This document shows, in pieces, positions 2,621-36,875 of a stretch of 36,875 nucleotides of DNA. Position 1 is the stretch's first letter. The number at the start of each line of letters is the position of its first letter. The notes beneath the pieces were generated by a model. The model had not been told where the DNA came from. It ran no database searches and saw only the letters and a program-made list of their open reading frames with translations. A program made the position numbers and the translations under genes. This DNA is from a virus (lineage: Duplodnaviria > Heunggongvirae > Uroviricota > Caudoviricetes), in the IMG/VR virus record IMGVR_UViG_2721755724_000003. One strand, written 5' to 3'.

Positions 2621-2732
2621 AACTGAAGTTGCCCTGAAAATGAAATTTTTTTGCACAACCGCAGAACTTTTCCGCAGGGCATCAGTCTTAATTAGTGCCA
2701 CTGCTTTTCTTTGATGTCCCCATTTTGTGGAG

Positions 2733-8250: not shown

Positions 8251-8304
8251 TTTGCTGTCCTGTCAATTGGGTTCTGGCGCGGTATCCCGCGCCGTTCAGA
8301 TATA

Positions 8305-8820: not shown

Positions 8821-8829
8821 GTTGTCCCC

Positions 8830-10002: not shown

Positions 10003-10078
10003 AGTGGCGAACCTCCTGATTGGATTAGGCTTCGCCCTATGTTGAAGTGATTGTGCCTGACAAACAGCTAAGCGCAGT

Positions 10079-10096
10079 TGTACCGTTATTCACACA
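10079..10096 (-). promoter_or_regulatory. candidate Ogr-dependent late promoter element upstream of FI (TGT-N12-ACA)
   Basis: TGTaccgttattcacACA about 85 nt upstream of the FI start; the same dyad motif recurs upstream of O and V. Confidence 0.45.
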
Positions 10097-10144
10097 AAAT
10101 GACGGTATTTGTCTGCTTTCAGGGATAATCAAAATAAAGCTGAT

Positions 10145-10717: not shown

Positions 10718-10738
10718 CTCCCTGAATAAAAATAGGGG

Positions 10739-11065
10739 ATGATGCCAGTTAGCCGTAATCGCTGCATTTTCTTAAACGTTGGTTTTGGAGAGCGGTTACT
10801 GGAGGCTGATGGGTACTTTGAATTACCGGGAGGATTGCTGCTGCAATGGGGGCACGGCTCGATTCATGCGTCAAGTGCCATTATACAGTTTAAGAAGTCG
10901 TTTAACGTCACTCCGTTCATTGTACTGCCGCATAAAATCACAACTGATGGTCGGTATGTGACGTCATCTAATTATACCTTAACTAGCTTTAGCCTTTATG
11001 GATGGAATGGAAACGGCACGGTAAACAATATTGACAGCTATACGTATTTTGCACTCGGGATGTAA
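10739..11065 (+). CDS. silent alternative tail-fibre C-terminal cassette
   Basis: ORF begins inside the crossover site; encodes ...VGFGERLLEADGYFELPGG..., parallel to the H C-terminus (...LGLGEAAK...WFRLPGG...). It would be fused to the H constant part after inversion. Confidence 0.55.
   Translation: MMPVSRNRCIFLNVGFGERLLEADGYFELPGGLLLQWGHGSIHASSAIIQFKKSFNVTPFIVLPHKITTDGRYVTSSNYTLTSFSLYGWNGNGTVNNIDSYTYFALGM
10769..10794. repeat. gix/cix-like crossover site, left boundary of invertible segment
   Basis: TTCTTAAACGTTGGTTTTGGAGAG, resembling the Gin gix site; inverted relative to the site at 11867-11892. Confidence 0.6.
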
Positions 11066-11093
11066 GAGAAAGCCGCGTAGAGCGGCTTTTTAT

Positions 11094-11519
11094 TTAGGTT
11101 GAGGAGGGCCAAACAATATCTGGAGCGCTGGATACGTCCACCGCTTCCAGCGCATCAAGATAATCCAGCCATAAATTGTACTGCGTTAATTCATCATCTT
11201 TCAGGCGTCCAAGCACCGATTTGCCAGGCCACTGCTTACTGTTTATGTATTCGTTAACCTGATTAATCAATTGCTGCTTTTCCAATTCGGCTGCGGCAAT
11301 TTGTTCCTCATGAGTTGGTGGTGGAATATCAATCCATGCTGGCATTCCGTCGATGACACCTCTGTATTTTCCTTCTGGTGCTTCCTTCATAAATTCGGCG
11401 GCAACAGTGTCGTCAATTTCGATTCCATCATCGGGCCATTCGCCGGATTCCTGATAAGCGATTTTAAGCTCCACAGGGAAAAACGCATTTTTATCGGCAC
11501 TGAAAATATATTTCTGCAT
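11094..11519 (-). CDS. tail fibre assembly protein (P2 gpG / Tfa-like)
   Basis: 141-aa ORF immediately downstream of H; acidic N-terminal part typical of Tfa chaperones. Confidence 0.8.
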   Translation of the reverse strand: MQKYIFSADKNAFFPVELKIAYQESGEWPDDGIEIDDTVAAEFMKEAPEGKYRGVIDGMPAWIDIPPPTHEEQIAAAELEKQQLINQVNEYINSKQWPGKSVLGRLKDDELTQYNLWLDYLDALEAVDVSSAPDIVWPSST

Positions 11520-11521
11520 TT

Positions 11522-12928
11522 CTACCGTCCTATCGAAATATAACTGAATCTGTATTGCTGTGAGATATTACTGGTTGCCACACGCCACGCTGAATTACTG
11601 ATATGTTCAAAATTTACAGACAAAACCTGCGGGGCAGGATTCGACGGGTCTGACTGAACGGCATCAGACATAACACTGACTGAAACCATTGGCTGATTAG
11701 GGAATGGTATAGGGAAGTGTCCACTGATAAAGCGAGTCGTGTTTCCTGAAAAAGTGCCAAACTGAACAATATATCCACCTGGTAGCCTGAACCATCCCGA
11801 ACCAGAAGCGAATGCTCCCATATCCGGTATCTGACCTGAACCTGTTCCCACATCCCGTTTTGCCGCTTCTCCCAAACCAAGGTATGTGAGAAGACCAGCT
11901 ACATCCTTTCCACTCAAATTGGTAAGCGTATTGTCCAGCGGTTGTTTACCTGCCAGCGCATTAAGCATTGTCGTGGCAAAGTTCGGATCATTCCCCAGTG
12001 CCGCCGCCAGTTCGTTCAGTGTATCCAGTGCAGCAGGTGCAGAACCCACCATTCCTGCAATCGCCGATTTCACAAAAGCCGTAGTGGCAATCTGTGTATT
12101 GTTGACCGACTGCGCCGCCGTGGGGGCTGTTGGCGTTCCGGTGAGTGCCGGACTCGACAACGGTGCTTTTAGTGCCAGCGCATTGTTAATGGTGGTACTG
12201 AAATTCGGATCATTGTTAATGGCTGCGGCTATTTCTTTCAGCGTGTCCAGCGTGGCTGGCGCACCATTAATAAGGGCCGTCAGTGCCGCCTGTACAAACG
12301 CAGTGGTCGCAACCTGAGTGGTATTATTCCCCGCCGCTGGCGTTGGCGCTTTGGGGGTTCCGGTAAATGTCGGGCTGGCTTTTGGCGCGTACTGTGAATG
12401 CGGGTCCGGTGCGGCAAGATGTTTTGCCATCTGATCATCCGCGTACACCTTCAGCTCCAGTGCCTTGTCATCCACATACTTGCGGGTTGCCAGCACTACA
12501 GCAGGGTCGATTTTCAGGGTGATATTGTCCGTGCTGCTGGTAATCAGCACCATGCGCACGGTCTGAGTGCGCCCGCTACCTTCAGCCAGTTGCGGCTTAT
12601 AGCTTTCCGGGCAGTTGCCCACGGCAATCAATGCCCCGGACTCATCAAACAAGCCCACTTCACGTATCCACCAACCGCCCTCGTTTTCAGGGATCACCTG
12701 TTCGGCAATAATCTGGCTGCTGTTCTGCGGGTCGATATAAAGCATATTCAGCGCAGCCCGGCGTTTCTCATTTACCAGTGCCGTCTGCTTTGCGTCCGGC
12801 GTTGGCAATACTCCACCGCCATCGCCCACCGCCATATGGGTAATTTTTAGCGGCACACCGAGCGCGGCGGCGCTGGCAAGTTTCGCCGCGCCAATATCCG
12901 TCAGCAGGGTATAAAATTTTGTGCTCAT
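11522..12928 (-). CDS. H: tail fibre protein (P2 gpH-like) with invertible C-terminal segment
   Basis: 468-aa ORF between I and tfa; internal tandem-repeated NDPNF..TT..NALA.K.PL motif; crossover site at codons about 346-355. Confidence 0.85.
   Translation of the reverse strand: MSTKFYTLLTDIGAAKLASAAALGVPLKITHMAVGDGGGVLPTPDAKQTALVNEKRRAALNMLYIDPQNSSQIIAEQVIPENEGGWWIREVGLFDESGALIAVGNCPESYKPQLAEGSGRTQTVRMVLITSSTDNITLKIDPAVVLATRKYVDDKALELKVYADDQMAKHLAAPDPHSQYAPKASPTFTGTPKAPTPAAGNNTTQVATTAFVQAALTALINGAPATLDTLKEIAAAINNDPNFSTTINNALALKAPLSSPALTGTPTAPTAAQSVNNTQIATTAFVKSAIAGMVGSAPAALDTLNELAAALGNDPNFATTMLNALAGKQPLDNTLTNLSGKDVAGLLTYLGLGEAAKRDVGTGSGQIPDMGAFASGSGWFRLPGGYIVQFGTFSGNTTRFISGHFPIPFPNQPMVSVSVMSDAVQSDPSNPAPQVLSVNFEHISNSAWRVATSNISQQYRFSYISIGR
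11867..11892. repeat. gix/cix-like crossover site inside tail-fibre gene H, right boundary
   Basis: Minus strand reads TTCTCACATACCTTGGTTTGGGAGAA, encoding LTYLGLGEA in H; shares the TTGGTTT..GGAGA core with the 10769 site. Confidence 0.6.
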
Positions 12929-21370: not shown

Positions 21371-23137
21371 ATGAACACCACACTGACACCCGCAGATCTC
21401 GATCCCCGTCGGCAGGCCATGCTGCTGTACTTTCAGGGATACCGCGTAGCCCGCATTGCTGAAATGCTGGGCGAGAAAGTTGCAACCGTTCACAGCTGGA
21501 AAAAACGCGACAAGTGGGGTGACTATGGGCCGCTGGATCAGATGCAGCTCACCACCGCCGCACGCTATTGCCAGCTCATTATGAAGGAGCACAAAGAAGG
21601 GAAAGATTTCAAAGAAATTGACCTGCTGGCACGCCAGTCGGAGCGCCACGCGCGGATCGGCAAGTTTAACAATGGCGGCAACGAAGCCGACTTAAACCCT
21701 AACGTCGCCAACCGCAACAAAGGGCCGCGCCGTCAGCCGGAAAAGAATGTTTTCACCGATGAACAGATTGAGAAGCTGGAAGAAATCTTCCATTCCTCCA
21801 TGTTCAACTACCAGCGCCACTGGTGGGAAGCTGGAAAAACCAACCGCATCCGTAATCTGCTGAAGTCACGCCAGATCGGCGCGACCTTTTACTTTGCCCG
21901 TGAAGCCCTGATTGACGCCCTGCTTACCGGACGTAACCAGATTTTCCTTTCTGCCAGTAAGGCACAGGCTCACGTCTTTAAGCAATACATCATCGACTTC
22001 GCCAAAGAAGTCGAGGTGGAGCTGAAAGGCGATCCGATGGTGCTTCCTAACGGGGCCACGCTTTACTTCCTCGGCACCAATGCCCGCACTGCCCAGAGTT
22101 ATCACGGCAACCTGTATCTGGATGAATATTTCTGGATACCGAAATTCCAGGAGCTGCGCAAAGTGGCTTCCGGTATGGCTATTCACAAAAAATGGCGACA
22201 AACCTATTTTTCCACGCCATCCAGCCTGACACACAGTGCTTATCCGTTCTGGTCTGGTGCGCTGTTCAACCGTGGGCGCAACAAAGCCGATAAGGTGGAC
22301 ATCGACCTGTCCCACAGCAATCTGGCCCCCGGCCTGCTGTGCGCAGACGGGCAATACCGCCAGATAGTCACCGTGGAAGATGCAGTGCGCGGCGGATGTA
22401 ACCTTTTCGACCTCGATCAGTTGCGCATGGAGTACAGCCCGGACGAATACCAGAACCTGCTGATGTGCGAGTTTGTGGACGATCTCGCGTCCGTGTTCCC
22501 GCTCAGCGAGCTGCAGGCGTGCATGGTGGACAGTTGGGAAGTCTGGAGCGACTTTCATGCACTGGCCCTGCGCCCGTTTGGCTGGCGCGAAGTGTGGATC
22601 GGTTATGACCCGGCAAAAGGTACGCAGAACGGCGACAGCGCCGGATGCGTGGTGGTGGCACCGCCAGCCGTGCCAGGCGGTAAGTTTCGCATTCTTGAAC
22701 GTCACCAGTGGCGCGGGATGGACTTCCGCGCCCAGGCTGACGCCATCAAAAAACTGACCGAACAGTACAACGTGACATACATCGGTATCGACTCAACCGG
22801 CGTCGGTCACGGGGTTTACGAGAACGTGAAAGCGTTTTTTCCTGCCGTCCGGGAGTTTGTCTACAACCCCAACGTTAAAAACGCCCTGGTACTCAAGGCC
22901 TACGACATTATTAGCCACCGCCGCCTGGAGTTTGACGCAGGGCACACCGACATAGCGCAGTCCTTTATGGCAATCCGTCGCGCCACCACTGCCAGCGGCA
23001 ACCGCCCGACCTATGAAGCCAGCCGCAGCGAAGAAGCCAGCCACGCCGATCTGGCCTGGGCAACAATGCACGCACTGTTTAATGAACCGCTGCAGGGCGA
23101 GTCCGCCAATACCAGCAATATTGTGGAGATTTTTTGA
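21371..23137 (+). CDS. P: terminase large (ATPase) subunit (P2 gpP-like)
   Basis: 588-aa ORF divergent from O; P2 gpP is about 590 aa. Confidence 0.85.
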   Translation: MNTTLTPADLDPRRQAMLLYFQGYRVARIAEMLGEKVATVHSWKKRDKWGDYGPLDQMQLTTAARYCQLIMKEHKEGKDFKEIDLLARQSERHARIGKFNNGGNEADLNPNVANRNKGPRRQPEKNVFTDEQIEKLEEIFHSSMFNYQRHWWEAGKTNRIRNLLKSRQIGATFYFAREALIDALLTGRNQIFLSASKAQAHVFKQYIIDFAKEVEVELKGDPMVLPNGATLYFLGTNARTAQSYHGNLYLDEYFWIPKFQELRKVASGMAIHKKWRQTYFSTPSSLTHSAYPFWSGALFNRGRNKADKVDIDLSHSNLAPGLLCADGQYRQIVTVEDAVRGGCNLFDLDQLRMEYSPDEYQNLLMCEFVDDLASVFPLSELQACMVDSWEVWSDFHALALRPFGWREVWIGYDPAKGTQNGDSAGCVVVAPPAVPGGKFRILERHQWRGMDFRAQADAIKKLTEQYNVTYIGIDSTGVGHGVYENVKAFFPAVREFVYNPNVKNALVLKAYDIISHRRLEFDAGHTDIAQSFMAIRRATTASGNRPTYEASRSEEASHADLAWATMHALFNEPLQGESANTSNIVEIF

Positions 23138-24162
23138 TGGGAAAGAGTAAGAAAAACCGCGCTGCGGCGACGAATCAGCTCAAGCATAAAAGCCAAACTT
23201 CAGCCGAAGCATTCAGCTTTGGCGATCCCGTTCCTGTTATGGACCGCCGTGAACTGCTGGACTATGTGGAATGCGTACAGATGGATCGCTGGTATGAGCC
23301 GCCCGTCAGCTTTGACGGACTGGCACGAACCTTCCGCGCCGCCGTGCATCACAGCTCACCAATTGCGGTGAAATGCAACATTCTGACCAGTACCTACATC
23401 CCTCACCCGCTGCTCAGCCAGCAGGCTTTTTCACGTTTTGTGCAGGACTATCTGGTATTTGGTAACGCCTACCTGGAGAAACGCACGAACCGCTTCGGTG
23501 AAGTTATCGCCCTTGAGCCTGCTCTGGCAAAATACACCCGACGCGGGTTAGACCTGGATACCTACTGGTTTGTGCAATACGGTATGACAACCCAGCCGTA
23601 TCAGTTCACGAAAGGCAGCATTTTTCATCTGATGGAACCTGACATCAACCAGGAGATCTACGGCCTACCAGGTTATCTTTCTGCCATTCCGTCAGCCCTG
23701 CTCAACGAGTCCGCCACGCTGTTCCGCCGGAAGTATTACATTAACGGCAGCCATGCAGGCTTCATCATGTACATGACCGATGCCGCGCAGAACCAGGAGG
23801 ATGTGAACAACCTCCGCAATGCGATGAAAAGCGCCAAAGGCCCTGGCAACTTCCGCAACCTGTTTATGTACTCGCCTAACGGCAAAAAGGACGGGCTTCA
23901 GATCATCCCGTTGTCAGAAGTCGCGGCGAAGGATGAATTTCTGAACATCAAGAACGTCAGCCGTGATGACATGATGGCAGCACACCGCGTACCGCCTCAG
24001 ATGATGGGAATTTTGCCGAATAATGTTGGGGGTTTTGGTGATGTGGAGAAGGCGAGCTGCGTCTTCGTAAGAAATGAACTATTACCACTTCAAAAAAGAT
24101 TCATGGAAATAAACAGATGGCTTGGTCATGAAATTATAAATTTTGAAATATATACATTATAA
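23134..24162 (+). CDS. Q: portal protein (P2 gpQ-like)
   Basis: 342-aa ORF overlapping the P stop (ATGA); P2 gpQ is about 344 aa. Confidence 0.85.
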   Translation: MMGKSKKNRAAATNQLKHKSQTSAEAFSFGDPVPVMDRRELLDYVECVQMDRWYEPPVSFDGLARTFRAAVHHSSPIAVKCNILTSTYIPHPLLSQQAFSRFVQDYLVFGNAYLEKRTNRFGEVIALEPALAKYTRRGLDLDTYWFVQYGMTTQPYQFTKGSIFHLMEPDINQEIYGLPGYLSAIPSALLNESATLFRRKYYINGSHAGFIMYMTDAAQNQEDVNNLRNAMKSAKGPGNFRNLFMYSPNGKKDGLQIIPLSEVAAKDEFLNIKNVSRDDMMAAHRVPPQMMGILPNNVGGFGDVEKASCVFVRNELLPLQKRFMEINRWLGHEIINFEIYTL

Positions 24163-24167
24163 AACCC

Positions 24168-24190
24168 AACGGCATCACAATGATGCCGTT
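24168..24190 (-). terminator. hairpin terminator between convergent Q and the PIN-like cargo gene
   Basis: Perfect inverted repeat aacggcatca / tgatgccgtt; on the minus strand it is followed by a T-rich run (gggttttata). Confidence 0.5.
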
Positions 24191-24199
24191 ATGAACGAA

Positions 24200-25261
24200 T
24201 TAATATTCAAAATTATTTTCTTCAATAGAGAACTCAATCCCTCGGGATAACTTATCAATATTCACATCAAATGCGATATCTGTTAATTCACCATCCTCGA
24301 TTTCATACATAACTTCAATTTCAATATCGAAACTAATCTCTTGAACTTCAGTTCGTGTGGTTGTCTCCATTGGAATCATTACTTTATCTTCGCTATCCCA
24401 ATACCCATTATTAAAGTCTGGACCAGAAACAGTAACTTCAAAATCTACAGAAACAGAGAAGGTCGCTAGACAATAATTATTGTCAATCTTAATTATTGAT
24501 GGTTCAAAGTCATCAATATTGACGACTTCAAATGAATCCAATTCAGCGTCTTCCCAAGTTGAAACGTTATATCCATCGGCATCATTGAGTTGGGCAATTA
24601 CGTCCGCTCTTATGTCTTCACGTTTGCTTTCGATAAACTGCATCAATTTATTACTTAATTCGTTTGTATGCGTATTGTATTCACCTAGAAACTTATCAAG
24701 TGAATCAATTTGATGAAGATTGTTTTTACCATCACAATAATTTTTTAAGTCACTATCCTCAGAAATGATATACACATCTTCATCATTAACAAATCGCTCT
24801 ACCGCAGCTAAAGTGATTGCATCAGGAAACTCACTTTTTTTCTTATTTTGCCCAAATGGTGGTTCTTTGCCAAAGTATTTATCTAAAACCTCATTAAGAT
24901 CTATCACTTCTATTGTAGCTAATTTGGCGTGACATCCTTTCAAAAAATCATCAAAAACTTTTTGTGCTGCTTCGTGAATTTCATGTTCGTTAAATTGCTG
25001 AAAAAAACCATGGAGCGGTCCATTATCAATACTATTCAAAAGCCTAGCTTTTCTTTGTACTGTGTTTATAGCCTGCAGAGCATCCTTTATTGATTCCTCT
25101 ATTTTACCTTTTACTTCTCTCTCTACAACTGTAGTTGTAATTAAGACTAAATCACCTTTCGCACATAATTCATGGAAAGCTTTAAATGCTACCCCCTCAA
25201 AATGAAGACCAGCCTTTACGTACGTTTGTGTGTCAATAAATACCTTATTTGTTTTAAGCAT
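24200..25261 (-). CDS. unassigned cargo protein, PIN-like N-terminal domain plus acidic C-terminal domain
   Basis: 353 aa, AT-rich; N-terminus carries PIN-like acidic positions (VFIDTQTY, LITTTVVEREV, YIISEDSDL); the C-terminal 130 aa or so are strongly Asp/Glu-rich. Confidence 0.55.
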   Translation of the reverse strand: MLKTNKVFIDTQTYVKAGLHFEGVAFKAFHELCAKGDLVLITTTVVEREVKGKIEESIKDALQAINTVQRKARLLNSIDNGPLHGFFQQFNEHEIHEAAQKVFDDFLKGCHAKLATIEVIDLNEVLDKYFGKEPPFGQNKKKSEFPDAITLAAVERFVNDEDVYIISEDSDLKNYCDGKNNLHQIDSLDKFLGEYNTHTNELSNKLMQFIESKREDIRADVIAQLNDADGYNVSTWEDAELDSFEVVNIDDFEPSIIKIDNNYCLATFSVSVDFEVTVSGPDFNNGYWDSEDKVMIPMETTTRTEVQEISFDIEIEVMYEIEDGELTDIAFDVNIDKLSRGIEFSIEENNFEY

Positions 25262-25387
25262 ACTAATCCTAATAAGTTTTAAGATCCGCTACAATTGTTT
25301 ATGTTTATTTTTTATCAATAATCATACGTAGTTAAGATTATCCATGTCGAAAAATTAAATCAACTTCAATTTATCCTTAAGCGCGCG

Positions 25388-25406
25388 CTCGTATCCCCGC
25401 CACGCC
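25388..25406 (-). other. candidate cos (cohesive end) site
   Basis: Minus strand reads GGCGTGGCGGGGATACGAG; the first 13 nt match my recollection of the 186/P2 cohesive end (GGCGTGGCGGGGAAAGCAT), and the orientation relative to Q is as in P2. Confidence 0.5.
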
Positions 25407-25728
25407 TGCCCGCTTTATGTAGTGGTTTTCATGCACCTGCATGTTCTACGTAAAAGCCCGCTAGTTCTGGCGAGCCTTAGCAAAAACGATCCTTAAACGA
25501 TCATGCGATTTCATGCAGCATAGTCATGCACTGTCTAAGAGAAGTGAAAGTCCGTATCTGAATGACCACTTGAAAAACGAAACATACAGACTTACAAAGA
25601 TGAAGCTCTACTGTGAGCGAGGAACATACATAGTTGCTCTGTAATAGCCAAATTTTAAGCAGGAAATCTCTTTTTTATGACAAAACTATAAAGAAAAACA
25701 GACCGTTTCATCGCTCGATGAAACTATA

Positions 25729-27306
25729 CTACAATACTTTTCTCTCGATGGTATTTTTAATGGTCAACATATCTTTAGGAATACTTTTTTTCCCCTCTAT
25801 ACGTATGGTAAACACAAAAAGAATAACGGCTGATCTCACAATTTTCATGAGTTGTAAGAGCTGTTTCTCAAACTTTTCTTTCTCAATAAATCTCACCTCA
25901 TCAAAAAATCCATAAGAATTATATAAATCAACTAACATGTCTTTCTCGTGAATAACTAACAGTTTATGTTCTAAATCATTCCTCCATTCTTTAAAAAAAG
26001 CAAGCTCACCATTTTTATCATTCAAATCCATAGCAATACTAAACAAACCCAGCAATCCTTTATTATTTATTTTGTTTATTTTAAGCTTTCTTTTTTCATC
26101 ACTAATCCGCCAGAAGTTATGAAAGTATATATGTCCTCTATCTGGTTTTAAATCAAATAATTGACACAGAGCAACTGCTATTTTATCCAAGATACCAAAG
26201 CAAGCTCTAAATGCAACCCTTAACTTCTCAACATTTTCATACAATATTTCTCCATTATACAATTCAGAATAACATACCTCCGAATCCTCATCAAAAAACT
26301 CACTATCAACCTTATATTCAAAAAACATTTTTCGTGCTAAGGAATACTCAGCTTTAAGTCTATTTAACACCATTTCCATTGGCACTATAAAATCACCAAA
26401 CACACCTTCCTCGGTGGTCGCAATAGTTATATTATCTTTAGATGACGCATAACAATTGCAATATAGCGAATGATCAGACAACATTAGATTATTATCTATA
26501 CAAAACCTCTGGTAGTTTGATAAAGTATCATACTCCTCCTGCGTGAGCCTTTCATCTGTACTTATATCCTCTATGCCATATACACATGATTCACTCAATA
26601 TACTTTCGTTGTACTTTATTTTTCTTTGAAGAGCAACCTTCCATGAAGGAAAACATTTCCCTGACTTTATTGCACACTCATAACCTCGAATAACTTCTTT
26701 AATCATTTTATATGTATATGTTGTAGATAATTCATTAAGCAATTCTAATGCCTCAGATCTGTTTACCCACGCCTGAGGAATTGAGTTATCAATAGATATT
26801 GCTTGTTCATAATAATCCATTGATTCAGATATACGATATTGTTTTTTTAATACATTAGCTAGATTAACTATTAAATCAGGGGGCACCCATCCATCTTCTT
26901 GTGAAAGTTTAAACGCTTTCCAGTAATTATTTTTTACATCATTCAGCTTAATGAAACTATCAATATCTGCATTGTCATTAGGATTAAAATCAAGAACTGC
27001 GCTCATTCCATTTGCCAAGTTATAGTAATATAAAGATTCTTTCATTATAGTCAGAAATTCATTTTTATTGTTTATAAAGATATTTAAGCCTTCCTCCGCT
27101 ATATTTTTTACATTACTAAAATTTCCGATATCAATAAGATTTCCGGCCAAATTAGATAATATAATTATTCTATTTTCTTTGATTGTATTTATCTCATCGA
27201 TACCGTTAAGAATATCCTTTACATTTTTATAGGCAGAATCAAATGAACCTGCATTAATAAGATCATCTACGAACCCCATTTTTGAAACAACATAGTTGAT
27301 ATCCAT
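25729..27306 (-). CDS. unassigned cargo protein, TPR-like N-terminal region plus C-terminal HEPN-motif region
   Basis: 525 aa, AT-rich; TPR-like stretch (YYEQAISIDNSIPQAWVNRSEALELL) and C-terminal EWRNDLEHKLLVIHE matching the HEPN Rx4-6H signature. Confidence 0.55.
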   Translation of the reverse strand: MDINYVVSKMGFVDDLINAGSFDSAYKNVKDILNGIDEINTIKENRIIILSNLAGNLIDIGNFSNVKNIAEEGLNIFINNKNEFLTIMKESLYYYNLANGMSAVLDFNPNDNADIDSFIKLNDVKNNYWKAFKLSQEDGWVPPDLIVNLANVLKKQYRISESMDYYEQAISIDNSIPQAWVNRSEALELLNELSTTYTYKMIKEVIRGYECAIKSGKCFPSWKVALQRKIKYNESILSESCVYGIEDISTDERLTQEEYDTLSNYQRFCIDNNLMLSDHSLYCNCYASSKDNITIATTEEGVFGDFIVPMEMVLNRLKAEYSLARKMFFEYKVDSEFFDEDSEVCYSELYNGEILYENVEKLRVAFRACFGILDKIAVALCQLFDLKPDRGHIYFHNFWRISDEKRKLKINKINNKGLLGLFSIAMDLNDKNGELAFFKEWRNDLEHKLLVIHEKDMLVDLYNSYGFFDEVRFIEKEKFEKQLLQLMKIVRSAVILFVFTIRIEGKKSIPKDMLTIKNTIERKVL

Positions 27307-27593
27307 TCAATCCTCTTTAAACTAAGCTAATAATACCAATCATTATATGGATGAGATCAATATAGAACATGCCATCTCCGGCAAAAATCGTACTACATCA
27401 GACCAGTGCCCTTCAAATAATATAAATTGAACTTAGATACTTCTGCTTCAACCAGTGTGTTAAATCCATCGCTTGAACTCAGAACAAAAAGCGGACGATC
27501 ACTTATCAAAATGGCCGTCCACCTAACGCCTCGTTTCACTCGTTGCCCAAAATAGTCCCCCATCAGAATGAATCCTCTTGGGGGCAACGTTTC

Positions 27594-27827
27594 TTAATGC
27601 AGCCAGCTGTCGTCTTCCCACACCTTCTGCATAATTTTCATCACTTGCTTCCTTTCTTCGTCCAGTTGCAGTCCGGTTAGTTCCACACCGTTAGAGCTAC
27701 CTTTGCGAATGCGAATTACCGTTTTGGGATACAGGGGGCACAGATTGCGGTAAAGCTCGGATTCAAGGGCGTCCAGGGTAGACTGGCTAATCTTCTGCTC
27801 TTTATCGATCACTATTTCAATGCGCAT
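27594..27827 (-). CDS. DinI-family protein (Tum C-terminal-domain-like)
   Basis: Start placed at ATG 27827; from MRIEIVIDKEQ..., which resembles the N-terminus and C-terminal WED/W motif of E. coli DinI. Confidence 0.7.
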   Translation of the reverse strand: MRIEIVIDKEQKISQSTLDALESELYRNLCPLYPKTVIRIRKGSSNGVELTGLQLDEERKQVMKIMQKVWEDDSWLH

Positions 27828-27837
27828 AAAAGTCACC

Positions 27838-28026
27838 TCAGCTGATGACATCCATTGAGCGGTTGTATTCGTGGGTTCTGATTTTTGCCATGAGTTCATC
27901 TGTTAGTTCAGAAACCCACTGCAGAGCCAGCCCCTTCTCTTCATCACTACACTCACTAGCCGCTACAAGCTTAAGAAAAAAATCAATGCGCTGGAGCTTC
28001 AAAGACTCCAAAAAATAGTCCTGCAT
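27838..28026 (-). CDS. small SOS-promoter-proximal protein (possible Tum N-terminal part)
   Basis: 62-aa ORF from ATG 28026 with a strong AGGAGG ribosome-binding site; first gene downstream of the LexA box. Confidence 0.45.
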   Translation of the reverse strand: MQDYFLESLKLQRIDFFLKLVAASECSDEEKGLALQWVSELTDELMAKIRTHEYNRSMDVIS

Positions 28027-28179: not shown

Positions 28180-30594
28180 TTAATACAGGTTCCGCCACTT
28201 ATCATCTTCCCGCAAACACTGGTTCCGATAGAAGATACGCAAGCCTGCTCCTGACGGAATACTGCCGCCGCGAAGGAGTAAATCGACCTCTTTCTCGCTA
28301 CCATCAAATCCTCTGGACTTCAGCTCATAGACGAGCTGCAGTCGCTGATGGTCTGTAATTCGCTGTTTGTAGTCTTTACGCCGTTTCGGTTTCACCAGGC
28401 GTAACCTTGCAGCCAGTTCCCGGCGCTCTTTTTTGTTCATACTGTGCAGGTAATCGTGCAACTCCTTGTCATCCATGCTGGTAATGTCCGTTCTGGGGTC
28501 CCCATCAGCTGATTTATCTTTCTCCTGTTGGTTCAAATTTTCAGCAAGGGGACAGTTATTGCCACGAGTCCAAGGGGCGCAAGCGCCCTGGTCGGCTGCC
28601 GCCTCCTGAATGTCAACGGCCTTACGAACCATTTTCCACTTCACGGCATGAGTGCAGATCTTGCCCTCTGCAATAGGTGACCAGATGCCATAAATACGAA
28701 TGCCGTGATCGCCATAGGCGGTCGGCTCTTCGTTGATTTCATAAGCAGTTCTGATGAGGTGATATTTGCGGGGAACCAGTACGCCGCCCTGCTTCATGAT
28801 GTAGGTGGCAAAACAACCAGCATCAGCAGCAGCCAGGATTGCATCAAGGCGCGGGTTATCCAGTACCGGCGCACCTGCTTTTTTGTCCCCCTGTTGCCTT
28901 GCCGCCTGACCAGCCAGCAATCGCAGTTCACGGTAAGCCTGACGCCCCGGAATGCCAAAGAAGCGGAATTGCTGAACACGATGCAGAGACGCCCAGGCAT
29001 TAACGTATTCAGCATTATCACGCAGGGATTTCCCCGTTTCCTTGCTGATCTCGCCAGCCAGACCACGCCCGTCAATGTTCTTACTGATGTATTTCGCGAT
29101 GTAGCTTGTTGGCGTACCTTTGCGCGGGTTAATCAACTCAGACTTAAAGCGCGGTCCAGTGTTATTGCCCAGCTCCTCGCGGTCTTCACGGATGGCAAAC
29201 TTACGCAGTAATGCAGTGATGGCGCGGCGGTCTTTTTTGCGCATAAAACACAACAGGTGCCAGTGAACTGTACCGTCATGATGCGGCTCAGCCACCCGCA
29301 CGCCATACCAGCGCAATCCGGCTTTGTGCATCGCCTTACGAAATGCAGCAAACATGCCGACCAGATAATCACTACTTTGTCTTACCGTCGCATTTGTCCA
29401 GGTTGGGTTGGGCCTGCCGTTATTTAGCGTGGAATGGAAACGTGACGGACAGGTGATGGTGTAGAAAACGGCGCAGTCACCGCGCATTTCCGCGATAAGC
29501 TCCAGACCTTTAACACAGGCCATCATCTCATTGCGGCGATGCGCAGGGTTGCTGCTGCTGGCGTTTACCACATCCTCCATGTCCAGCGTGTCGCCGTCTT
29601 CGTTCACCAGTTCATGAGAACGGAAAAACTCCAGCGACTTACGGCGCTGCTCACGTTTATGCATCACGGCTTCATAGCTGACATAAGGAGATGCTTTTTT
29701 GCTAACCAGGCAGACAGCGCGCAACTGCTCTTCCCGCCATTCGCAACGCATCTTCCATAATTTCCGATACCACCAGTCAGCGCACAACATACGCGCCAGC
29801 GAACCCGGAATGAGTTCATAGGGCACGGGTTTACGGCGGTTTCTTTTCCGGCGGAGTTGCTCAAACGCAGGCGGGATGACATCCAGACGCAGGGTTTCCG
29901 CTGCCACCTTTTCCCATGTATTGCGGATTTCTTCTGGCTTAACGTCATCGGTGACATACAAATCGCCACAAGCTACATCAAGGCACATGCTCATATGCGC
30001 AGCGACAAGGGTAGACAAGCGTTTCACCTGATCCTGACTCATTTCAGGCAGGATCAGCAGGCCGTCCAGCCCTTCATGGCTTGCCATAAAGCGAAAAGAA
30101 GTGGATAGCTGACTGTCGCGTACATGCTCCAGTCGTTCCAGACATGGCTTAATCGTCTCACGCAAATAGCGGGAATAAGCCTTTGGCCTGCCCAGGCTGC
30201 TGAAGTATTCAATACGTTGCATCAGCGGCTTGCTGATATGGGAAGGCTGGGCATTGACGTCCGCCAGAATGACCATGTCCGGGTTAAAACGCTGCTGCTC
30301 ATGCGCCAGCTTTGCCCGACTAATGAGCTTATCCTGCTCCATTTCGCGCTGGACAGGATCACGGGATTCATTAAAGAAATAACGCTCCCAGACCTGATCA
30401 CTCAGCGCCTCACGGCGCAGCTGTTCCTGCTCGTTATCGGCAGCGTACAGAGTGATCAGATTTGAAAGCGCAGAAACCGGCGCAACTTCCGCCGGGTCCA
30501 GATAAGGGTTAATGGCCTTTTTCGGGCTGTTCCATGAGAATGCTGCGGCGACCTCGTTAAAGCCGCTAGAGTTGCTCATATCGTCATGACTCAT
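28180..30594 (-). CDS. A: replication initiation endonuclease (P2 gpA-like rolling-circle initiator)
   Basis: 804-aa ORF with a YIAKYISK-type tyrosine motif; position matches A of P2/186. Confidence 0.85.
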
Positions 30595-33499: not shown

Positions 33500-33624
33500 G
33501 ATGCAACATTCCTCTTTTAGCAATGATTAATCAGGATGAATACTGATCGTTTGTATTATGTGAACACTGCAAACATACGATCACATCATGAAATCGTCAA
33601 GGTAAAAGTTCACTTGGAGTGACC

Positions 33625-34188
33625 ATGAATTTGGAAAAAGGCGGTCGTGGGGCCATAGAGCGCATGGTTGAAGCCTATGGTTTCAAGACAAGACAAGCTT
33701 TGTGTGATCATTTGGGCATTTCTAAAAGCACCTTAGCCACGCGCTATATGCGTGATTCATTCCCGGCAGAATGGGTAATCCAATGTGCACTTGAAACCGG
33801 CACGTCGCTAGAGTGGCTAACTACTGGGCAAGGTTCAAAAGAAAGTTCACAAAAAGAAAACACAAAAGAGATCGAAAGGAAGATTTTATCAAGCGGAAAA
33901 CTACTTCCTGATGGTTACTACATTTTCGACAACAACTTTTTGCCTGAAAAACTAAAAAAACCTTTTGTTGTGATCGATGGCGCATCAGAGTTTATCTGTG
34001 ATTCGGATTATGAGGATGTACGTGATGGTAAGTGGATCGTTGATATTGATGGCGAGGTTGCTATCAGGAATCTGACAAGACTGCCGGGACGTCGTCTAAA
34101 TGTCGATGGCGGCAGCAGTTCCTTTGAATGCAAAATAGATGAAATTGATATCATAGGAAAAATTAGAAGCGCGATCGTCAATTATTAA
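33625..34188 (+). CDS. cI: 186-type CI immunity repressor
   Basis: About 187 aa with an N-terminal HTH ([20 protein letters not shown]) and a C-terminal domain; start at ATG 33625 with GGAG upstream (the ORF track opens at GTG 33619). Confidence 0.75.
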
Positions 34189-34211
34189 AATTAATGTATA
34201 AGGAAATAAAT

Positions 34212-34397
34212 ATGTTTTATAAATCTATACATATCCTACTTATTTGTTTATTTATTACGTTACCTATTACAAGTTTTGCAAAAAATTATCCATGTTCTGG
34301 TAAGAAAGGGGGAGTTTCACATTGTACATCTGATGGGAAGTTCGTTTGCAATGATGGAACGCAAAGCAAGTCAAAGAAAATATGTTCTAAAAACTAA
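34212..34397 (+). CDS. small secreted Cys/Lys-rich peptide
   Basis: Start at ATG 34212 with an AAGGA ribosome-binding site; signal peptide [23 protein letters not shown], then a mature part of about 38 aa with four cysteines. Confidence 0.5.
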
Positions 34398-34408
34398 GGT
34401 TGCTTCAT

Positions 34409-35740
34409 ATGAATAATGATATGACTTTTGAAAACAGAGATGAGTATAATAGAAAAATCATTGCTGAAAAAATAATAAGCTTACTCGAGTCCCCCTTAAA
34501 AATATCCCCTATTGTTATCGATGGGGACTGGGGTACCGGTAAAACCGAATTTTCAAAAAAATTAGCGGCATTGATTGAAAAAAATGAATCTGGGCATAAA
34601 GTAGTATATATTGATGCATTTACTGAAGATCATAATGATGCTCCCATACTTACTATAATGGCTGCAATAGTTGCATTATATCCAGAGAGTGAAAAGAAGG
34701 AATTAATATCAAAGGCATTACCAGCATTGAGATTTGGACTTAAAACTGTACTCAAAGCTGGCGCTGGGTGGATTTTAAAACAAAATGCAGATGATATTGC
34801 GGATGAATTCGAAGATGCTATTAAAGATGCGGCTAACTCAGCTATAGATGGTACTGTAGAAGCACTGCTTGATGATCATATTGAAGCAAAGAAACATTTG
34901 CTTGCTCTCAAGGAAGTACTTGCTGAACTAACTAGCGAAAATAAAATAACAATTATCATTGACGAACTTGACCGTTGTAAACCAAGCTTTGCCATCTCTA
35001 TCATCGAAAATATAAAACATGTTTTTGACACTGAAAATCTTAACTTCTTGTTAGTTGCTAACATCTCACAATTGAAAGCATCAATAAATCATATTTACGG
35101 TGCAGGTGTTGACTCAGAAAGATATCTTGATAAATTTATAAAATTCACTTACAGCCTGCCAGTGACTTTCACTGAAAACAATTACGATAAAATTTTGGCT
35201 TCGAACTCTCATTTTAGAATGCTATGTAACGAGTCTGAAAGACTAAAAGAAATTGGAGAAAGTAGTATTCATATAGTTCAAAAATTTATCGAACTAAAAG
35301 GCTTGTCGCTACGGGAAGTTGAAACCTTATCAAGATATCTAGAAATTTATCAAATTTTATCTCAAAATGAAATCAGCAATAAATTTATACCAGGCTATTG
35401 CTGTTATCGAACCCTTGCAGTAATTCTTTATTCGTTTGGTCGTGAACTGGCCCTTAACTACGTAGAAGATAAAATAGATGCACAATTAATAATCAATTTC
35501 TTCGGTGTTAATAGACTCCCATATCAGACAGATCAATATAACATCAACATCTACTATTATGCATTATTTGGTATAACTTATAAATATATGCCAGAAGGTT
35601 CTCCTTTACTTCCTTCTGAAAACGATGAAAAAAACAGATGGGCTGAAATAAGTGATTATCATATTTTAAAAGGAAATGCAGGTGTAGAAGACCCTGTTAG
35701 AATATTCAAAAACACCTTAAAAGTTTTCTTGCTCCAATGA
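34409..35740 (+). CDS. KAP-family P-loop NTPase
   Basis: Walker A GDWGTGKT, a YIDAF motif after it (KAP proteins have NAW-like motifs there) and Walker B IIIDELDRC; AT-rich; sits between cI and int. Confidence 0.7.
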   Translation: MNNDMTFENRDEYNRKIIAEKIISLLESPLKISPIVIDGDWGTGKTEFSKKLAALIEKNESGHKVVYIDAFTEDHNDAPILTIMAAIVALYPESEKKELISKALPALRFGLKTVLKAGAGWILKQNADDIADEFEDAIKDAANSAIDGTVEALLDDHIEAKKHLLALKEVLAELTSENKITIIIDELDRCKPSFAISIIENIKHVFDTENLNFLLVANISQLKASINHIYGAGVDSERYLDKFIKFTYSLPVTFTENNYDKILASNSHFRMLCNESERLKEIGESSIHIVQKFIELKGLSLREVETLSRYLEIYQILSQNEISNKFIPGYCCYRTLAVILYSFGRELALNYVEDKIDAQLIINFFGVNRLPYQTDQYNINIYYYALFGITYKYMPEGSPLLPSENDEKNRWAEISDYHILKGNAGVEDPVRIFKNTLKVFLLQ

Positions 35741-35797
35741 AATGTTTGATTGAAGATCTTTAAACATTGACCACTGTTCAAACATACAGTTAAATTT

Positions 35798-35822
35798 AGT
35801 CCTCAGACATGAGGACTTTTTT
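35798..35822 (+). terminator. rho-independent terminator abutting the int start codon
   Basis: Stem agtcctca / tgaggact with a 4-nt loop, followed by TTTTTT, then ATG at 35823. Confidence 0.55.
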
Positions 35823-36875
35823 ATGGCAGTACGAAAACTCAACACAGGTAAATGGATTTGTGAATGCTACCCCGCCGGGCGCAATGGGCGGCGTGTGCGT
35901 AAGCAGTTTGCAACTAAGGGTGAAGCATTGGCTTTTGAGCGTCACACGATGGAAGAAACCGGAGCAAAACCCTGGCTGGGTGAATCAGTGGATCGTCGAA
36001 CACTGAAAGACGTGGTTGAGCTATGGTTCAAACTACATGGTAAATCTCTGACGGCTGGGCAGCATGTCTATGACAAATTGCTGTTGATGGTTGACGCTCT
36101 GGGAAATCCCATTGCAACCGATCTCACCTCTAAAATGTTTGCCCACTATCGAGATAAACGCCTGACAGGAGAGATCTACTTCAGCGAAAAATGGAAGAAA
36201 GGAGCAAGCCCGGTCACCGTTAACCTGGAGCAAAGCTATCTAAGTAGTGTTTTTAGCGAACTATCCCGCTTGGGCGAATGGTCGTATCAGAACCCACTGG
36301 AGAACATGCGAAAATTCACCATCGCAGAAAAAGAGATGGCATGGCTTACCCATGAACAGATTGTTGAATTGCTGGCTGATTGCAAACGTCAGGACCCAAT
36401 TCTGGCACTGGTAGTCAAGATATGCTTAAGCACAGGCGCACGCTGGCGAGAAGCAATAAATCTTACCCGTTCACAGGTGACTAAATACCGAATTACCTTT
36501 GTCAGAACGAAGGGGAAGAAAAACAGAAGCATTCCCATCAGTAAAGAGCTTTACGAAGAGATCATGGCACTTGATGGGTTCAATTTCTTTACAGACTGCT
36601 ATTTTCAATTTTTATCCGTGATGGAAAAAACGTCTATCGTGCTCCCTCGCGGTCAACTGACACACGTTCTGCGTCATACGTTTGCGGCGCATTTTATGAT
36701 GTCGGGTGGAAACATCCTGGCCTTACAAAAAATTCTCGGGCATCACGATATAAAAATGACGATGCGTTACGCACATCTGGCACCGGATCATCTGGAAACG
36801 GCGCTCCGTTTCAATCCTCTTGCAACGCTGCCAAGTGGCGACAAAGTGGCGGCAGCGGTTGGCATTACCCCGTAA
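35823..36875 (+). CDS. int: tyrosine integrase (P2/186 Int-like)
   Basis: 350 aa with C-terminal HxxR and RYAHL catalytic-tyrosine motifs; the att core repeat lies in its last codons; the stop is the final triplet of the window. Confidence 0.85.
   Translation: MAVRKLNTGKWICECYPAGRNGRRVRKQFATKGEALAFERHTMEETGAKPWLGESVDRRTLKDVVELWFKLHGKSLTAGQHVYDKLLLMVDALGNPIATDLTSKMFAHYRDKRLTGEIYFSEKWKKGASPVTVNLEQSYLSSVFSELSRLGEWSYQNPLENMRKFTIAEKEMAWLTHEQIVELLADCKRQDPILALVVKICLSTGARWREAINLTRSQVTKYRITFVRTKGKKNRSIPISKELYEEIMALDGFNFFTDCYFQFLSVMEKTSIVLPRGQLTHVLRHTFAAHFMMSGGNILALQKILGHHDIKMTMRYAHLAPDHLETALRFNPLATLPSGDKVAAAVGITP
36836..36857. repeat. att core direct repeat, int-proximal junction
   Basis: TGGCGACAAAGTGGCGGCAGCG within the last codons of int; pairs with the 2834-2855 copy. 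Confidence 0.6.

What the first reader, a model, noticed from the sequence alone, without database searches (positions are those of the whole stretch)
34212..35740. Moron between cI and int: KAP-type P-loop NTPase plus a small secreted cysteine-containing peptide
Seen in sequence: P2 and 186 have int directly after the repressor gene, but here about 1.6 kb of AT-rich DNA carries two co-oriented genes: a 61-aa pre-peptide with a clear signal sequence and four Cys in a Lys-rich mature part of about 38 aa, and a 443-aa protein with GDWGTGKT (Walker A), YIDAF, and IIIDELDRC (Walker B), diagnostic of KAP-family NTPases. Inference: the placement downstream of cI means the pair would be transcribed from the lysogenic promoter, that is, expressed in the lysogen, which is typical of lysogenic-conversion or superinfection-exclusion genes. 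This KAP protein shows no obvious transmembrane insertions, which many KAP proteins have.
Basis: partly seen in the sequence, partly recalled or inferred. Interest (0 to 1): 0.75.

Follow-up and report, generated by a model that had tools for sequence, protein, structure and literature searches.

The report
Prophage defence slot: YdcA peptide plus KAP ATPase
Both genes are real, but they are two independent passengers in a known variable slot of a 186-like prophage: a small exported peptide that normally sits there, and a rarer ATPase already catalogued as an untested anti-phage candidate.

Summary
Between cI (33619-34188) and int (35823-36875) lies about 1.6 kb of AT-rich DNA (GC 0.30-0.33, window 0.50). 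It holds a 61-aa signal-peptide protein (34212-34397) and a 443-aa soluble KAP NTPase (34409-35740).

The "pair" reading does not hold.
- The peptide belongs to the YdcA family. It is the default occupant of this slot: cI-ydcA-int alone occurs in 57 of 80 related viral contigs and about 590 of 5,426 complete E. coli genomes.
- The KAP gene is rare (9 genomes; 14 for a 55%-identical allele). It also sits in the slot without ydcA.
- None of 80 distant KAP homologue loci has a ydcA nearby. Nine of 30 sampled are embedded in type I restriction-modification operons.

The KAP protein matches PADLOC candidate PDC-S20 full length (E 1e-171). Its closest solved folds are the defence ATPases RdrA and BrxC.

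Other relatives carry PD-Lambda-1, PDC-M11 or a HEPN-like gene in the slot. It is therefore a defence hotspot, of a type already reported for P2-related phages.

Verdict: a new member of a known kind, of modest interest. One side lead: YdcA resembles the repeated lobes of Legionella Dis2.

The parts
33619..34188 (+). cI immunity repressor of a 186-like prophage and first gene of the presumed lysogenic operon. RefSeq uses the start at 33625.
   Evidence: Pfam Phage_CI_repr E 3e-33 and Phage_CI_C E 6e-29. Annotated as phage repressor protein CI in identical E. coli loci.
34212..34397 (+). ydcA-family gene. It encodes a 61-aa pre-peptide with a signal sequence, and a 38-aa basic mature part with 4 conserved Cys. 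It is the default resident of the cI-int slot in this lineage.
   Evidence: NCBIfam NF007463 E 3.5e-25 and phrog_6000 E 6.5e-26. Homologues carry PF27300 YdcA. Invariant C28, C38, C46 and C58. Present alone in 57 of 80 relatives.
34409..35740 (+). Soluble KAP-family P-loop NTPase of 443 aa, matching PADLOC candidate PDC-S20. This is the rare, inserted cargo gene.
34523..34546 (+). Walker A motif G39-T46 (GDWGTGKT).
   Evidence: Invariant G39, W41, G42, G44, K45, T46 in alignment A1.
34952..34978 (+). Walker B motif I182-C190 (IIIDELDRC).
   Evidence: Invariant D185, E186, L187, D188, R189, C190 in A1.
35399..35737 (+). Hypervariable all-helical C-terminal domain of the KAP protein (aa 331-443). 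Proposed specificity or sensor module.
   Evidence: Mean pairwise identity 0.23, against 0.55-0.62 in the NTPase core. High pLDDT helices.
35764..35822 (+). Conserved int leader that forms the right border of the cargo slot. It contains a promoter-like TTGACC-18-TAAATT (35767-35796), then a stem-loop (35798-35817) with GAGG in its 3' arm, then a T-run that runs into the int ATG.
   Evidence: Conserved in loci with every cargo type. Terminator-like by scan. Folding energy -14.8 kcal/mol, z = -4.0. The window stem AGTCCTCA/TGAGGACT differs from the class-B stem AGCCCTCA/TGAGGGCT of other loci by a compensatory C:G to T:A change.
35823..36875 (+). Tyrosine integrase; right end of the prophage.
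   Evidence: Pfam Int_N E 1.9e-32 and Phage_integrase E 7e-22. 94-99% identical across loci that differ in cargo.

Best explanation
The 1.6-kb AT-rich stretch is the accessory slot of the lysogenic operon (cI ... int) of a 186-like prophage. It holds two functionally independent genes.

(1) ydcA is a long-resident small gene linked to the cI allele. Its product is exported by Sec and processed to a 38-aa, lysine-rich peptide, probably with two disulfides, in the periplasm. There it most likely acts on the envelope of the lysogen. My best guess is a superinfection-exclusion or outer-membrane-complex-binding role. That guess rests on analogy with the periplasmic Glo protein, which sits in the same slot of phage K139, and on its resemblance to the outer-membrane-proximal Dis2 lobes.

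(2) The KAP NTPase is a rarer cassette dropped between ydcA and the conserved int leader. It is a single-gene anti-phage defence candidate (PDC-S20). I propose that the conserved NTPase core is a nucleotide-driven switch or oligomerisation module with an RdrA/BrxC-like fold. I propose that the hypervariable helical C-terminal domain recognises a component of an incoming phage. Recognition would trigger NTP-dependent assembly that blocks infection, possibly abortively, while the resident prophage is spared.

Shown: gene content, family membership, independence of the two genes, the variable cargo of the slot, and the defence-island context of homologues.
Inferred: co-transcription with cI, anti-phage activity, the sensor role of the C-terminus, and the function of YdcA.
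For: Independence of the two genes:
- ydcA alone fills the slot in 57 of 80 IMG/VR relatives and about 590 of 5,426 E. coli genomes.
- KAP without ydcA occurs in L090-092 (31-bp cI-KAP gap) and in Serratia L006.
- Locus L100 combines ydcA with the 55%-identical KAP allele.
- None of 80 KAP-homologue loci has a ydcA within 6 kb.
- YdcA genes occur in Moraxella, Acinetobacter, Pseudomonas and Haemophilus phages without KAP. One is an unannotated ORF directly after cI in HP2.

The slot is a hotspot:
- With the same flanks, other relatives carry PD-Lambda-1 (E 3e-120), 8xMP plus PDC-M11A/B, a HEPN_Swt1-like protein, or an unknown 393-aa protein.
- Published precedents: PMC9122126 describes a cI-int hotspot in K139-like phages. 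PMC13586616 places 8% of P2 defence systems between int and primase.

KAP as a defence gene:
- Full-length PDC-S20 match, E 1e-171.
- PDCs were defined by embedding in BREX, DISARM or type I RM systems (bioRxiv 10.1101/2024.01.29.577857). I reproduced this: 9 of 30 sampled loci lie between hsdS and hsdR, with Abi_2 and RhuM among the neighbours.
- The C-terminus is hypervariable.
- Other KAP NTPases give Walker-B-dependent phage defence (PMC12632615). A single-gene KAP system, 'Reve', from P4 satellites is active (PMC13586616).

Operon:
- Tight spacing and no terminator-like site before the KAP stop.
- 186 and K139 are annotated with lysogenic operons running through this slot.
Against: - No experiment on PDC-S20 was found; the source paper calls PDCs 'untested'.
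- The protein has no recognisable effector domain, no transmembrane segment and no partner gene, so the killing or blocking step is unknown.
- Residues 113-154 are highly conserved but modelled at pLDDT below 50, so part of the mechanism is unseen.
- Promoter-like matches in the region are no more frequent than chance (12 found, 10.1 expected), and transcription was not measured.
- YdcA function is entirely unknown, including for the K-12 chromosomal copy (PMC11340327).
- The Dis2 link is weak once the signal peptide is removed (E 0.0037).
- The IMG/VR sample is the 80 best cI matches and contains many near-identical prophages, so its proportions are biased.
Confidence: 0.6

Rival explanations
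1. ydcA and KAP form one two-component system. The periplasmic peptide senses or blocks the incoming phage at the envelope and signals to, or is backed up by, the cytoplasmic NTPase. It would stand in for the transmembrane/periplasmic loop that other KAP proteins such as Tmn carry.
For: The genes are adjacent, co-oriented and only 11 nt apart. The ydcA+KAP arrangement recurs at 100, 88, 83, 80 and 68% KAP identity. This KAP lacks the transmembrane insertion, which Tmn is thought to use for periplasmic sensing (bioRxiv 10.1101/2022.08.21.504612).
Against: ydcA is present alone far more often. KAP sits in the same slot without ydcA. None of 80 distant KAP loci has a ydcA. YdcA occurs in many phages and plasmids with no KAP. 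ydcA divergence tracks cI, whereas KAP alleles are shuffled relative to both (L100).
Confidence: 0.08
2. The KAP NTPase is not an anti-phage gene. It would instead serve the prophage or host in another way, for example modulating lysogeny, excision or integration next to int, acting against satellites or plasmids, or changing host physiology as a lysogenic-conversion factor.
Against: The slot holds unrelated, defence-typed cargo in sister prophages, including the experimentally validated PD-Lambda-1 (PMC9519451). Most prophages of the lineage manage lysogeny without KAP. Homologues are embedded in type I RM operons, far from any phage. The top fold hits are defence ATPases.
Confidence: 0.15
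3. The segment is decaying or inert horizontally acquired DNA with no current function.
For: It is AT-rich (GC 0.30-0.33) and rare in E. coli, at 9 of 5,426 genomes.
Against: Both ORFs are intact. The locus is 99.6-100% identical in nine genomes and sits next to different host genes in two of them (rcdA, ompF). The Walker motifs and 65 columns are invariant across alleles down to 41% identity. ydcA keeps all four Cys. The only disrupted copy seen is L125, by an IS element.
Confidence: 0.03

Closest known systems
PADLOC PDC-S20, a single-gene 'phage defence candidate' (Payne et al., bioRxiv 10.1101/2024.01.29.577857)
   Same: Full-length HMM match (PDLC04956, E 1.1e-171). Same size class of 440-450 aa. 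Homologues are embedded in type I RM operons.
   Different: Here the gene is carried in the lysogenic operon of a prophage rather than inside an RM system. The family is untested, so membership says nothing yet about mechanism.
Other KAP NTPases linked to phage defence: PifA (F plasmid), QatA (QatABCD), Tmn, EF_KAP, and 'Reve' from P4 satellites
   Same: A KAP P-loop core with Walker A and DELDR Walker B. Partial HMM hits to PifA (E 3e-15) and QatA (E 2e-10). Reve and EF_KAP act as single genes (PMC13586616, PMC12632615).
   Different: There is no transmembrane helix, unlike Tmn and EF_KAP. There is no long effector region; PifA is modelled at 720 aa and EF_KAP has 322 extra residues. There are no QatBCD partners. 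The QatA NCBIfam score is 42.9 against a cutoff of 600.
RdrA of RADAR and BrxC of BREX (solved structures)
   Different: Sequence identity is 8-16%. The protein is about half the size of RdrA. There is no RdrB deaminase or BREX partner gene nearby.
cI-int defence hotspot of P2-related phages (Rousset et al. 2022, PMC9122126; de Sousa et al. 2026, PMC13586616) and the K139 orf2-glo pair
   Same: Same position, between the repressor and the integrase in the lysogenic operon. Cargo is variable between conserved flanks. K139 carries a periplasmic exclusion protein (Glo) plus a cytoplasmic protein there.
   Different: It was described for Vibrio K139-like phages, and only as a minor 'int-primase' hotspot for P2. 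Here it is a 186-like Escherichia/Enterobacterales lineage with a resident ydcA gene. No tool result links YdcA or KAP to Glo or orf2, and no direct comparison was run.
E. coli K-12 YdcA (57 aa, b1419) and Pfam PF27300
   Same: Same family: signal peptide and the motif [28 protein letters not shown].
   Different: The K-12 copy is chromosomal and not in a prophage. The function is unknown in both (PMC11340327).
Dis2 (Lpg0823) of the Legionella Dot/Icm T4SS outer-membrane cap
   Same: A profile of YdcA peptides hits Dis2 as the best PDB sequence (E 1.3e-5; mature-only E 0.0037). Foldseek also ranks it first (37% identity over 35 columns). Dis2 is two similar disulfide-pinned lobes near the outer membrane (PMC8486379).
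   Different: Dis2 has two lobes and five disulfides and is part of a secretion machine. YdcA is a single lobe with four Cys. The statistical support is modest and the Foldseek E-value is 0.33.

Membership tests
KAP family P-loop NTPase (Pfam PF07693; Aravind et al. 2004) | Match to the family HMM above the curated threshold, over the whole domain | tested here: met
   E 3.7e-51, 174.6 bits against a cutoff of 20; residues 16-315 cover 2-290/293 of the model.
KAP family P-loop NTPase (Pfam PF07693; Aravind et al. 2004) | Walker A GxxGxGK[ST] and Walker B hhhhDELDR motifs | tested here: met
   GDWGTGKT at aa 38-46 and IIIDELDRC at aa 182-190, invariant in 18 homologues.
KAP family P-loop NTPase (Pfam PF07693; Aravind et al. 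2004) | Transmembrane helices inserted between Walker A and Walker B (present in many members, not all) | tested here: not met
   The maximum 19-residue hydropathy is 1.10, so there is no TM segment. The insertion point holds a long soluble helical hairpin, H93-130 and H135-174. The feature is not obligatory for the family.
PADLOC PDC-S20 | Full-length match to the PDC-S20 HMM | tested here: met
   PDLC04956 E 1.1e-171, covering 1-441 of the protein and 1-447/450 of the model.
PADLOC PDC-S20 | Genetic embedding in, or association with, known defence systems | tested here: met
   9 of 30 sampled homologue loci have HsdS/HsdR (8 also HsdM) as immediate neighbours; Abi_2, RhuM and YgjP also appear. 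In the window itself the context is a prophage hotspot shared with PD-Lambda-1 and PDC-M11.
PADLOC PDC-S20 | Demonstrated anti-phage activity | not testable with these tools
   The source paper lists PDCs as untested (bioRxiv 10.1101/2024.01.29.577857). No paper mentions PDC-S20.
QatABCD (QatA) | QatA equivalog score and QatB/C/D partner genes | tested here: not met
   NCBIfam QatA 42.9 bits against a cutoff of 600. The neighbours are ydcA and int only.
RADAR (RdrA) | An RdrA-type ATPase of about 800 aa with an adjacent RdrB adenosine deaminase | tested here: not met
   [not shown]
YdcA family (PF27300 / NCBIfam PRK10040) | HMM match | tested here: inconclusive
   NF007463 E 3.5e-25, but 87.6 bits is just under the equivalog cutoff of 93. 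phrog_6000 E 6.5e-26. All 97-98%-identical homologues carry precomputed PF27300, and RefSeq names the 98% variant 'YdcA family protein'. PF27300 is absent from the local Pfam copy.
YdcA family (PF27300 / NCBIfam PRK10040) | N-terminal signal peptide and four conserved Cys in a mature part of about 38 aa | tested here: met
   Hydrophobic core KD15 2.5 and an SFA|KN site. C28, C38, C46 and C58 are invariant in A5. SignalP was not available and export is untested.
Moron (Hendrix/Juhala sense) | Extra gene(s) between genes that are adjacent in related phages, with deviant base composition | tested here: met
   cI and int abut in phage 186. GC is 0.30-0.33 against 0.50. For KAP the immediate comparison is the cI-ydcA-int relatives.
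Moron (Hendrix/Juhala sense) | Own promoter and terminator | tested here: inconclusive
   Promoter-like sites are not above chance (12 against 10.1). The only terminator-like hairpin (35798-35817) belongs to the conserved int leader, not to the insert.
Prophage defence hotspot (Rousset 2022 sense) | Conserved flanking genes with many unrelated, defence-typed cargos at one position | tested here: met
   The same cI and int flanks enclose ydcA only, ydcA+KAP, KAP only, PD-Lambda-1, 8xMP+PDC-M11A/B, a HEPN-like protein, or an unknown 393-aa protein.

The most novel reading that the evidence does not exclude
YdcA-family peptides could be an unrecognised, widespread class of prophage- and plasmid-borne periplasmic factors. 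They would be expressed with the repressor and, like the homologous lobes of Dis2 in the Dot/Icm outer-membrane cap, dock onto an outer-membrane complex to block DNA entry (superinfecting phage or conjugative transfer). The effector-less soluble KAP NTPase next to it would be a complete single-protein immune sensor.
Probability: 0.2. Interest if true: 0.6.

Novelty: new member of a known kind. Interest (0 to 1): 0.35.

Why it matters
If the KAP gene is active, it would give the untested PDC-S20 family a tractable E. coli model. It is 443 aa, soluble, and has no partner gene or recognisable effector domain. Two natural alleles differ mainly in the C-terminal domain, which suits specificity-swap experiments on how minimal KAP/STAND-like ATPases sense phages.

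The cI-int slot of 186-like prophages would extend to Enterobacterales a hotspot so far described for Vibrio K139-like phages.

Tried and rejected
- **KAP-YdcA co-occurrence.** tblastn of the peptide against 80 genome loci holding KAP homologues found no hit better than E 0.09. The two-gene-system idea was therefore rejected as the main reading.
- **PDB by sequence with the KAP profile.** No hit at E <= 0.01; fold search was needed instead.
- **Pfam on the peptide.** Nothing found, because PF27300 is newer than the local library.
- **PADLOC on the peptide.** Nothing found.
- **Literature.** No paper mentions PDC-S20. No listed result of the YdcA/prophage search mentions YdcA. The 'Reve' KAP system of PMC13586616 could not be compared because no supplementary sequences are held.
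- **Megablast against the phage collection.** Only int matched, so the immunity and cargo region is absent from deposited phage genomes.
- **Foldseek with the YdcA model.** Only one plausible hit (Dis2, E 0.33); the rest is noise.
- **QatA, PifA or RdrA membership.** Rejected on score, size and missing partner genes.
- **Decaying DNA.** Rejected because of conservation.
- **A coordinate slip of one base in my ORF script.** It caused two failed scans and was corrected.
Full report
**1. What is in the sequence**

ORF listing shows four co-oriented genes at the right end of the window:
- cI, 33619-34188
- a small ORF, 34194-34397 (61 aa from the ATG at 34212, which has an AAGGA Shine-Dalgarno)
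- a 443-aa ORF from the ATG at 34409 to 35740
- int, 35823-36875

Pfam confirms cI (Phage_CI_repr plus Phage_CI_C, the 186 type) and int.

The two middle genes are strongly AT-rich. GC is 0.30 and 0.33, against 0.42 for cI, 0.48 for int and 0.50 for the window.

It hits Pfam KAP_NTPase at E 3.7e-51 and has no transmembrane segment (maximum 19-residue hydropathy 1.10).

The small protein has a hydrophobic N-terminus and an SFA|KN cleavage-type site. Its mature part is 38 aa with four Cys, eight Lys and pI 9.5.

Phage 186 does have cI abutting int.

**2. What the two genes are**

*The NTPase.* It matches the PADLOC model PDC-S20 over its full length (E 1.1e-171). PDCs are 145 untested candidates that Payne and colleagues defined because they are embedded in BREX, DISARM or type I RM systems (bioRxiv 10.1101/2024.01.29.577857).

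It belongs to a large family of stand-alone proteins of about 440-450 aa (1,745 hits among the scored candidates).

*The peptide.* It belongs to the YdcA family:
- NCBIfam NF007463 at E 3.5e-25, just under the equivalog cutoff
- phrog_6000 at E 6.5e-26
- close homologues carry the newer Pfam PF27300 'YdcA'
- RefSeq names the 98%-identical variant 'YdcA family protein'

K-12 YdcA is a 57-aa predicted periplasmic protein of unknown function (PMC11340327).

The family motif is [28 protein letters not shown], with all four Cys invariant.

**3. The two genes are not a unit**

Three lines of evidence show this.

(a) Distant KAP homologues have no ydcA nearby. I fetched 80 loci with KAP homologues at 28-51% identity from a species-representative genome collection. 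None has a YdcA-like ORF within 6 kb.

(b) Closer KAP homologues all sit in the cI-int slot of 186-like prophages, but not always with ydcA.
- The 83, 80 and 68% homologues have ydcA upstream.
- The 55% allele in E. coli follows cI after 31 bp with no ydcA.
- The 51% homologue in Serratia fonticola is likewise cI-KAP-int.
- Locus L100 combines ydcA with the 55% allele.

(c) Relatives found with the cI protein show ydcA alone as the usual state. The 80 best IMG/VR relatives break down as follows:

| Content of the cI-int slot | Loci |
|---|---|
| ydcA alone (gap about 400 bp) | 57 |
| ydcA directly after cI, locus truncated before int | 2 |
| ydcA + KAP | 6 |
| ydcA split by an IS element | 1 |
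| other cargo, no ydcA | 10 |
| truncated, no information | 4 |

This sample is biased towards close cI alleles and is redundant. The complete E. coli genomes give the same picture:

| Slot content | Genomes of 5,426 |
|---|---|
| ydcA-only slot | 590 |
| window's ydcA+KAP segment (34190-35800) | 9 |
| 55% KAP allele | 14 |
| PD-Lambda-1 cargo | 163 |

ydcA divergence follows that of cI: about 70% identity where cI is about 71%. KAP alleles are shuffled relative to both.

YdcA genes also occur without KAP in other places:
- Moraxella, Acinetobacter and Pseudomonas phages
- Acinetobacter and Rhizobium plasmids
- Haemophilus phage HP2, as an unannotated 60-aa ORF (2486-2668, minus strand) whose start overlaps the cI stop, followed by orf1(S) and int

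So ydcA is a resident gene attached to the repressor, and KAP is a separate cassette inserted between ydcA and int.

**4. The slot is a defence hotspot**

With the same int (94-99% identical) and a conserved 60-90-bp int leader, sister prophages carry different cargo:
- PD-Lambda-1 in phages vB_EcoM-813R9 and KP12 (PADLOC E 3e-120; DUF4041 plus T5orf172). [quoted passage not shown]
- an 8xMP membrane protein plus PDC-M11A/B
- a HEPN_Swt1-like 418-aa protein
- an unknown 393-aa protein

This type of hotspot is already published. Rousset et al. described one between cI and int of K139-like Vibrio phages (PMC9122126). de Sousa et al. place 8% of P2 defence systems between int and primase (PMC13586616).

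K139 itself has cI-orf2-glo-int, where Glo is a periplasmic phage-exclusion protein.

**5. How the KAP protein probably works**

The AlphaFold2 model (pLDDT 80, pTM 0.70) shows three elements:
- a P-loop core
- a long helical hairpin (93-174) at the point where other KAP proteins carry transmembrane helices; its tip (113-154) is highly conserved but poorly modelled
- an all-helical C-terminal domain

Conservation is uneven. Mean pairwise identity is 0.55-0.62 in the NTPase core, 0.39 for residues 263-330 and 0.23 for residues 331-443. That is the pattern expected of a conserved switch joined to a fast-evolving recognition module.

Nine of 30 sampled homologue loci lie between hsdS and hsdR of type I RM operons. 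Others lie next to Abi_2 or RhuM genes.

Published work shows that other KAP NTPases defend against phages in a Walker-B-dependent way (EF_KAP, PMC12632615; Tmn, bioRxiv 10.1101/2022.08.21.504612). A single-gene KAP system from P4 satellites ('Reve') is also active (PMC13586616).

My best explanation is a single-protein sensor-switch. Its C-terminal domain would recognise a phage component and its NTPase core would drive assembly that halts infection. The effector step is unknown, because no nuclease, membrane or other effector domain is present. Anti-phage activity is inferred, not shown.

**6. Expression**

- The spacing is tight: cI to ydcA 23 nt, ydcA to KAP 11 nt.
- No terminator-like site lies before the KAP stop.
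- 186 and K139 are annotated with lysogenic operons running from pL through this position.

These points favour co-transcription with cI in the lysogen. Promoter-like matches in the region are at chance level (12 against 10.1 expected).

Directly downstream of KAP lies the conserved int leader:
- a TTGAC(C)A...TAAAAT/TAAATT promoter-like element
- a stem-loop whose 3' arm contains GAGG (probably the int ribosome-binding site), followed by a T-run that ends at the int ATG
- folding energy -14.8 kcal/mol, z = -4.0
- a compensatory C:G to T:A change in the window relative to other class-B loci (AGTCCTCA/TGAGGACT against AGCCCTCA/TGAGGGCT)

This element probably ends or attenuates the cI-cargo transcript and controls int. 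It marks the right border at which cassettes are exchanged.

**7. YdcA side lead**

A profile of YdcA peptides finds one significant PDB sequence: Dis2 (Lpg0823) of the Legionella Dot/Icm outer-membrane cap (E 1.3e-5).
- With the signal peptide removed, Dis2 is still the top hit (E 0.0037, both Dis2 lobes matched).
- Foldseek of the YdcA model (pLDDT 75; mature part 81-88) also ranks Dis2 first, with 37% identity over 35 columns, probability 0.84 and E 0.33.

The link is plausible but modestly supported. It suggests that YdcA is a periplasmic, outer-membrane-proximal binding module. That fits, but does not prove, an exclusion role like that of Glo.

**8. Verdict**

The specific framing as a KAP-plus-peptide moron pair is wrong. 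The peptide gene is ordinary at this position. The KAP gene is a catalogued candidate in a hotspot type that is already published.

I rate this a new member of a known kind, with interest 0.35. The most novel surviving reading concerns YdcA rather than KAP.

Noticed in passing
[not shown]
   Followed up: partly
L003 (Haemophilus phage HP2, NC_003315) 2486-2668, minus strand: An unannotated 60-aa YdcA-family ORF whose ATG overlaps the cI stop. It is followed by orf1(S), a 254-aa protein with a signal peptide, and then int. This is the same cI-ydcA-X-int layout in a different Peduoviridae genus.
   Followed up: partly
window 35764-35822: A conserved int leader is shared by loci with every cargo type. 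It has a promoter-like TTGACC-18-TAAATT, a stem-loop (35798-35817; -14.8 kcal/mol, z -4.0) holding GAGG in its 3' arm, and a T-run ending at the int ATG. The window stem differs from the class-B stem of other loci by a compensatory C:G to T:A change. It is probably a terminator/attenuator and a translational control element for int.
   Followed up: partly
window 24000-28000: A second AT-rich island (GC 0.32-0.39) lies between the 342-aa ORF 23134-24162 (portal by its P2-like position; not scanned) and the 804-aa ORF 28180-30594 (aligned with the replication endonuclease annotated in E. coli H2). This is the published P2 hotspot. It holds a PIN_12 protein (24200-25261, minus strand) and a TPR plus HEPN_LA2681 protein (25729-27306, minus strand). 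Neither matches a PADLOC defence family (one weak generic TPR hit, E 1.3e-4), so this may be another uncatalogued candidate pair.
   Followed up: partly
window 935-2620: A 561-aa Asp-Al_Ex/TrkA_C permease, probably the host gene ybjL. The window would then start in chromosomal DNA, with the prophage inserted between it and rcdA, as in E. coli H2.
   Followed up: no
L125 6591-8130: In one IMG/VR relative the ydcA gene is split by an IS element (301-aa and 136-aa transposase-type ORFs on the opposite strand; IS3-family is my guess, no domain scan was run). It is the only disrupted copy seen.
   Followed up: no
L002 (E. coli ST131 strain 4224, NZ_CP103592) 8760-9764: The same cI-ydcA-KAP-int module ends next to an ompF gene annotated as missing its N-terminus. 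This prophage therefore sits at a different site and may have disrupted the OmpF porin gene.
   Followed up: no
L011, L013, L018, L020, L021, L024-L026, L035 (about 3200-11700): In Neiella, Psychrobacter, Shewanella, Idiomarina and Aliidiomarina, the KAP homologue is embedded between hsdM-hsdS and hsdR of type I RM operons. A YgjP-like metallopeptidase gene often follows hsdR.
   Followed up: partly
KAP protein residues 113-154 (window 34745-34870): The tip of the helical insertion between Walker A and B is among the most conserved parts of the family (invariant K116, A117, L123, Q125, I146) but is modelled with pLDDT below 50. It may be an interaction or oligomerisation surface that replaces the transmembrane hairpin of other KAP proteins.
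   Followed up: no
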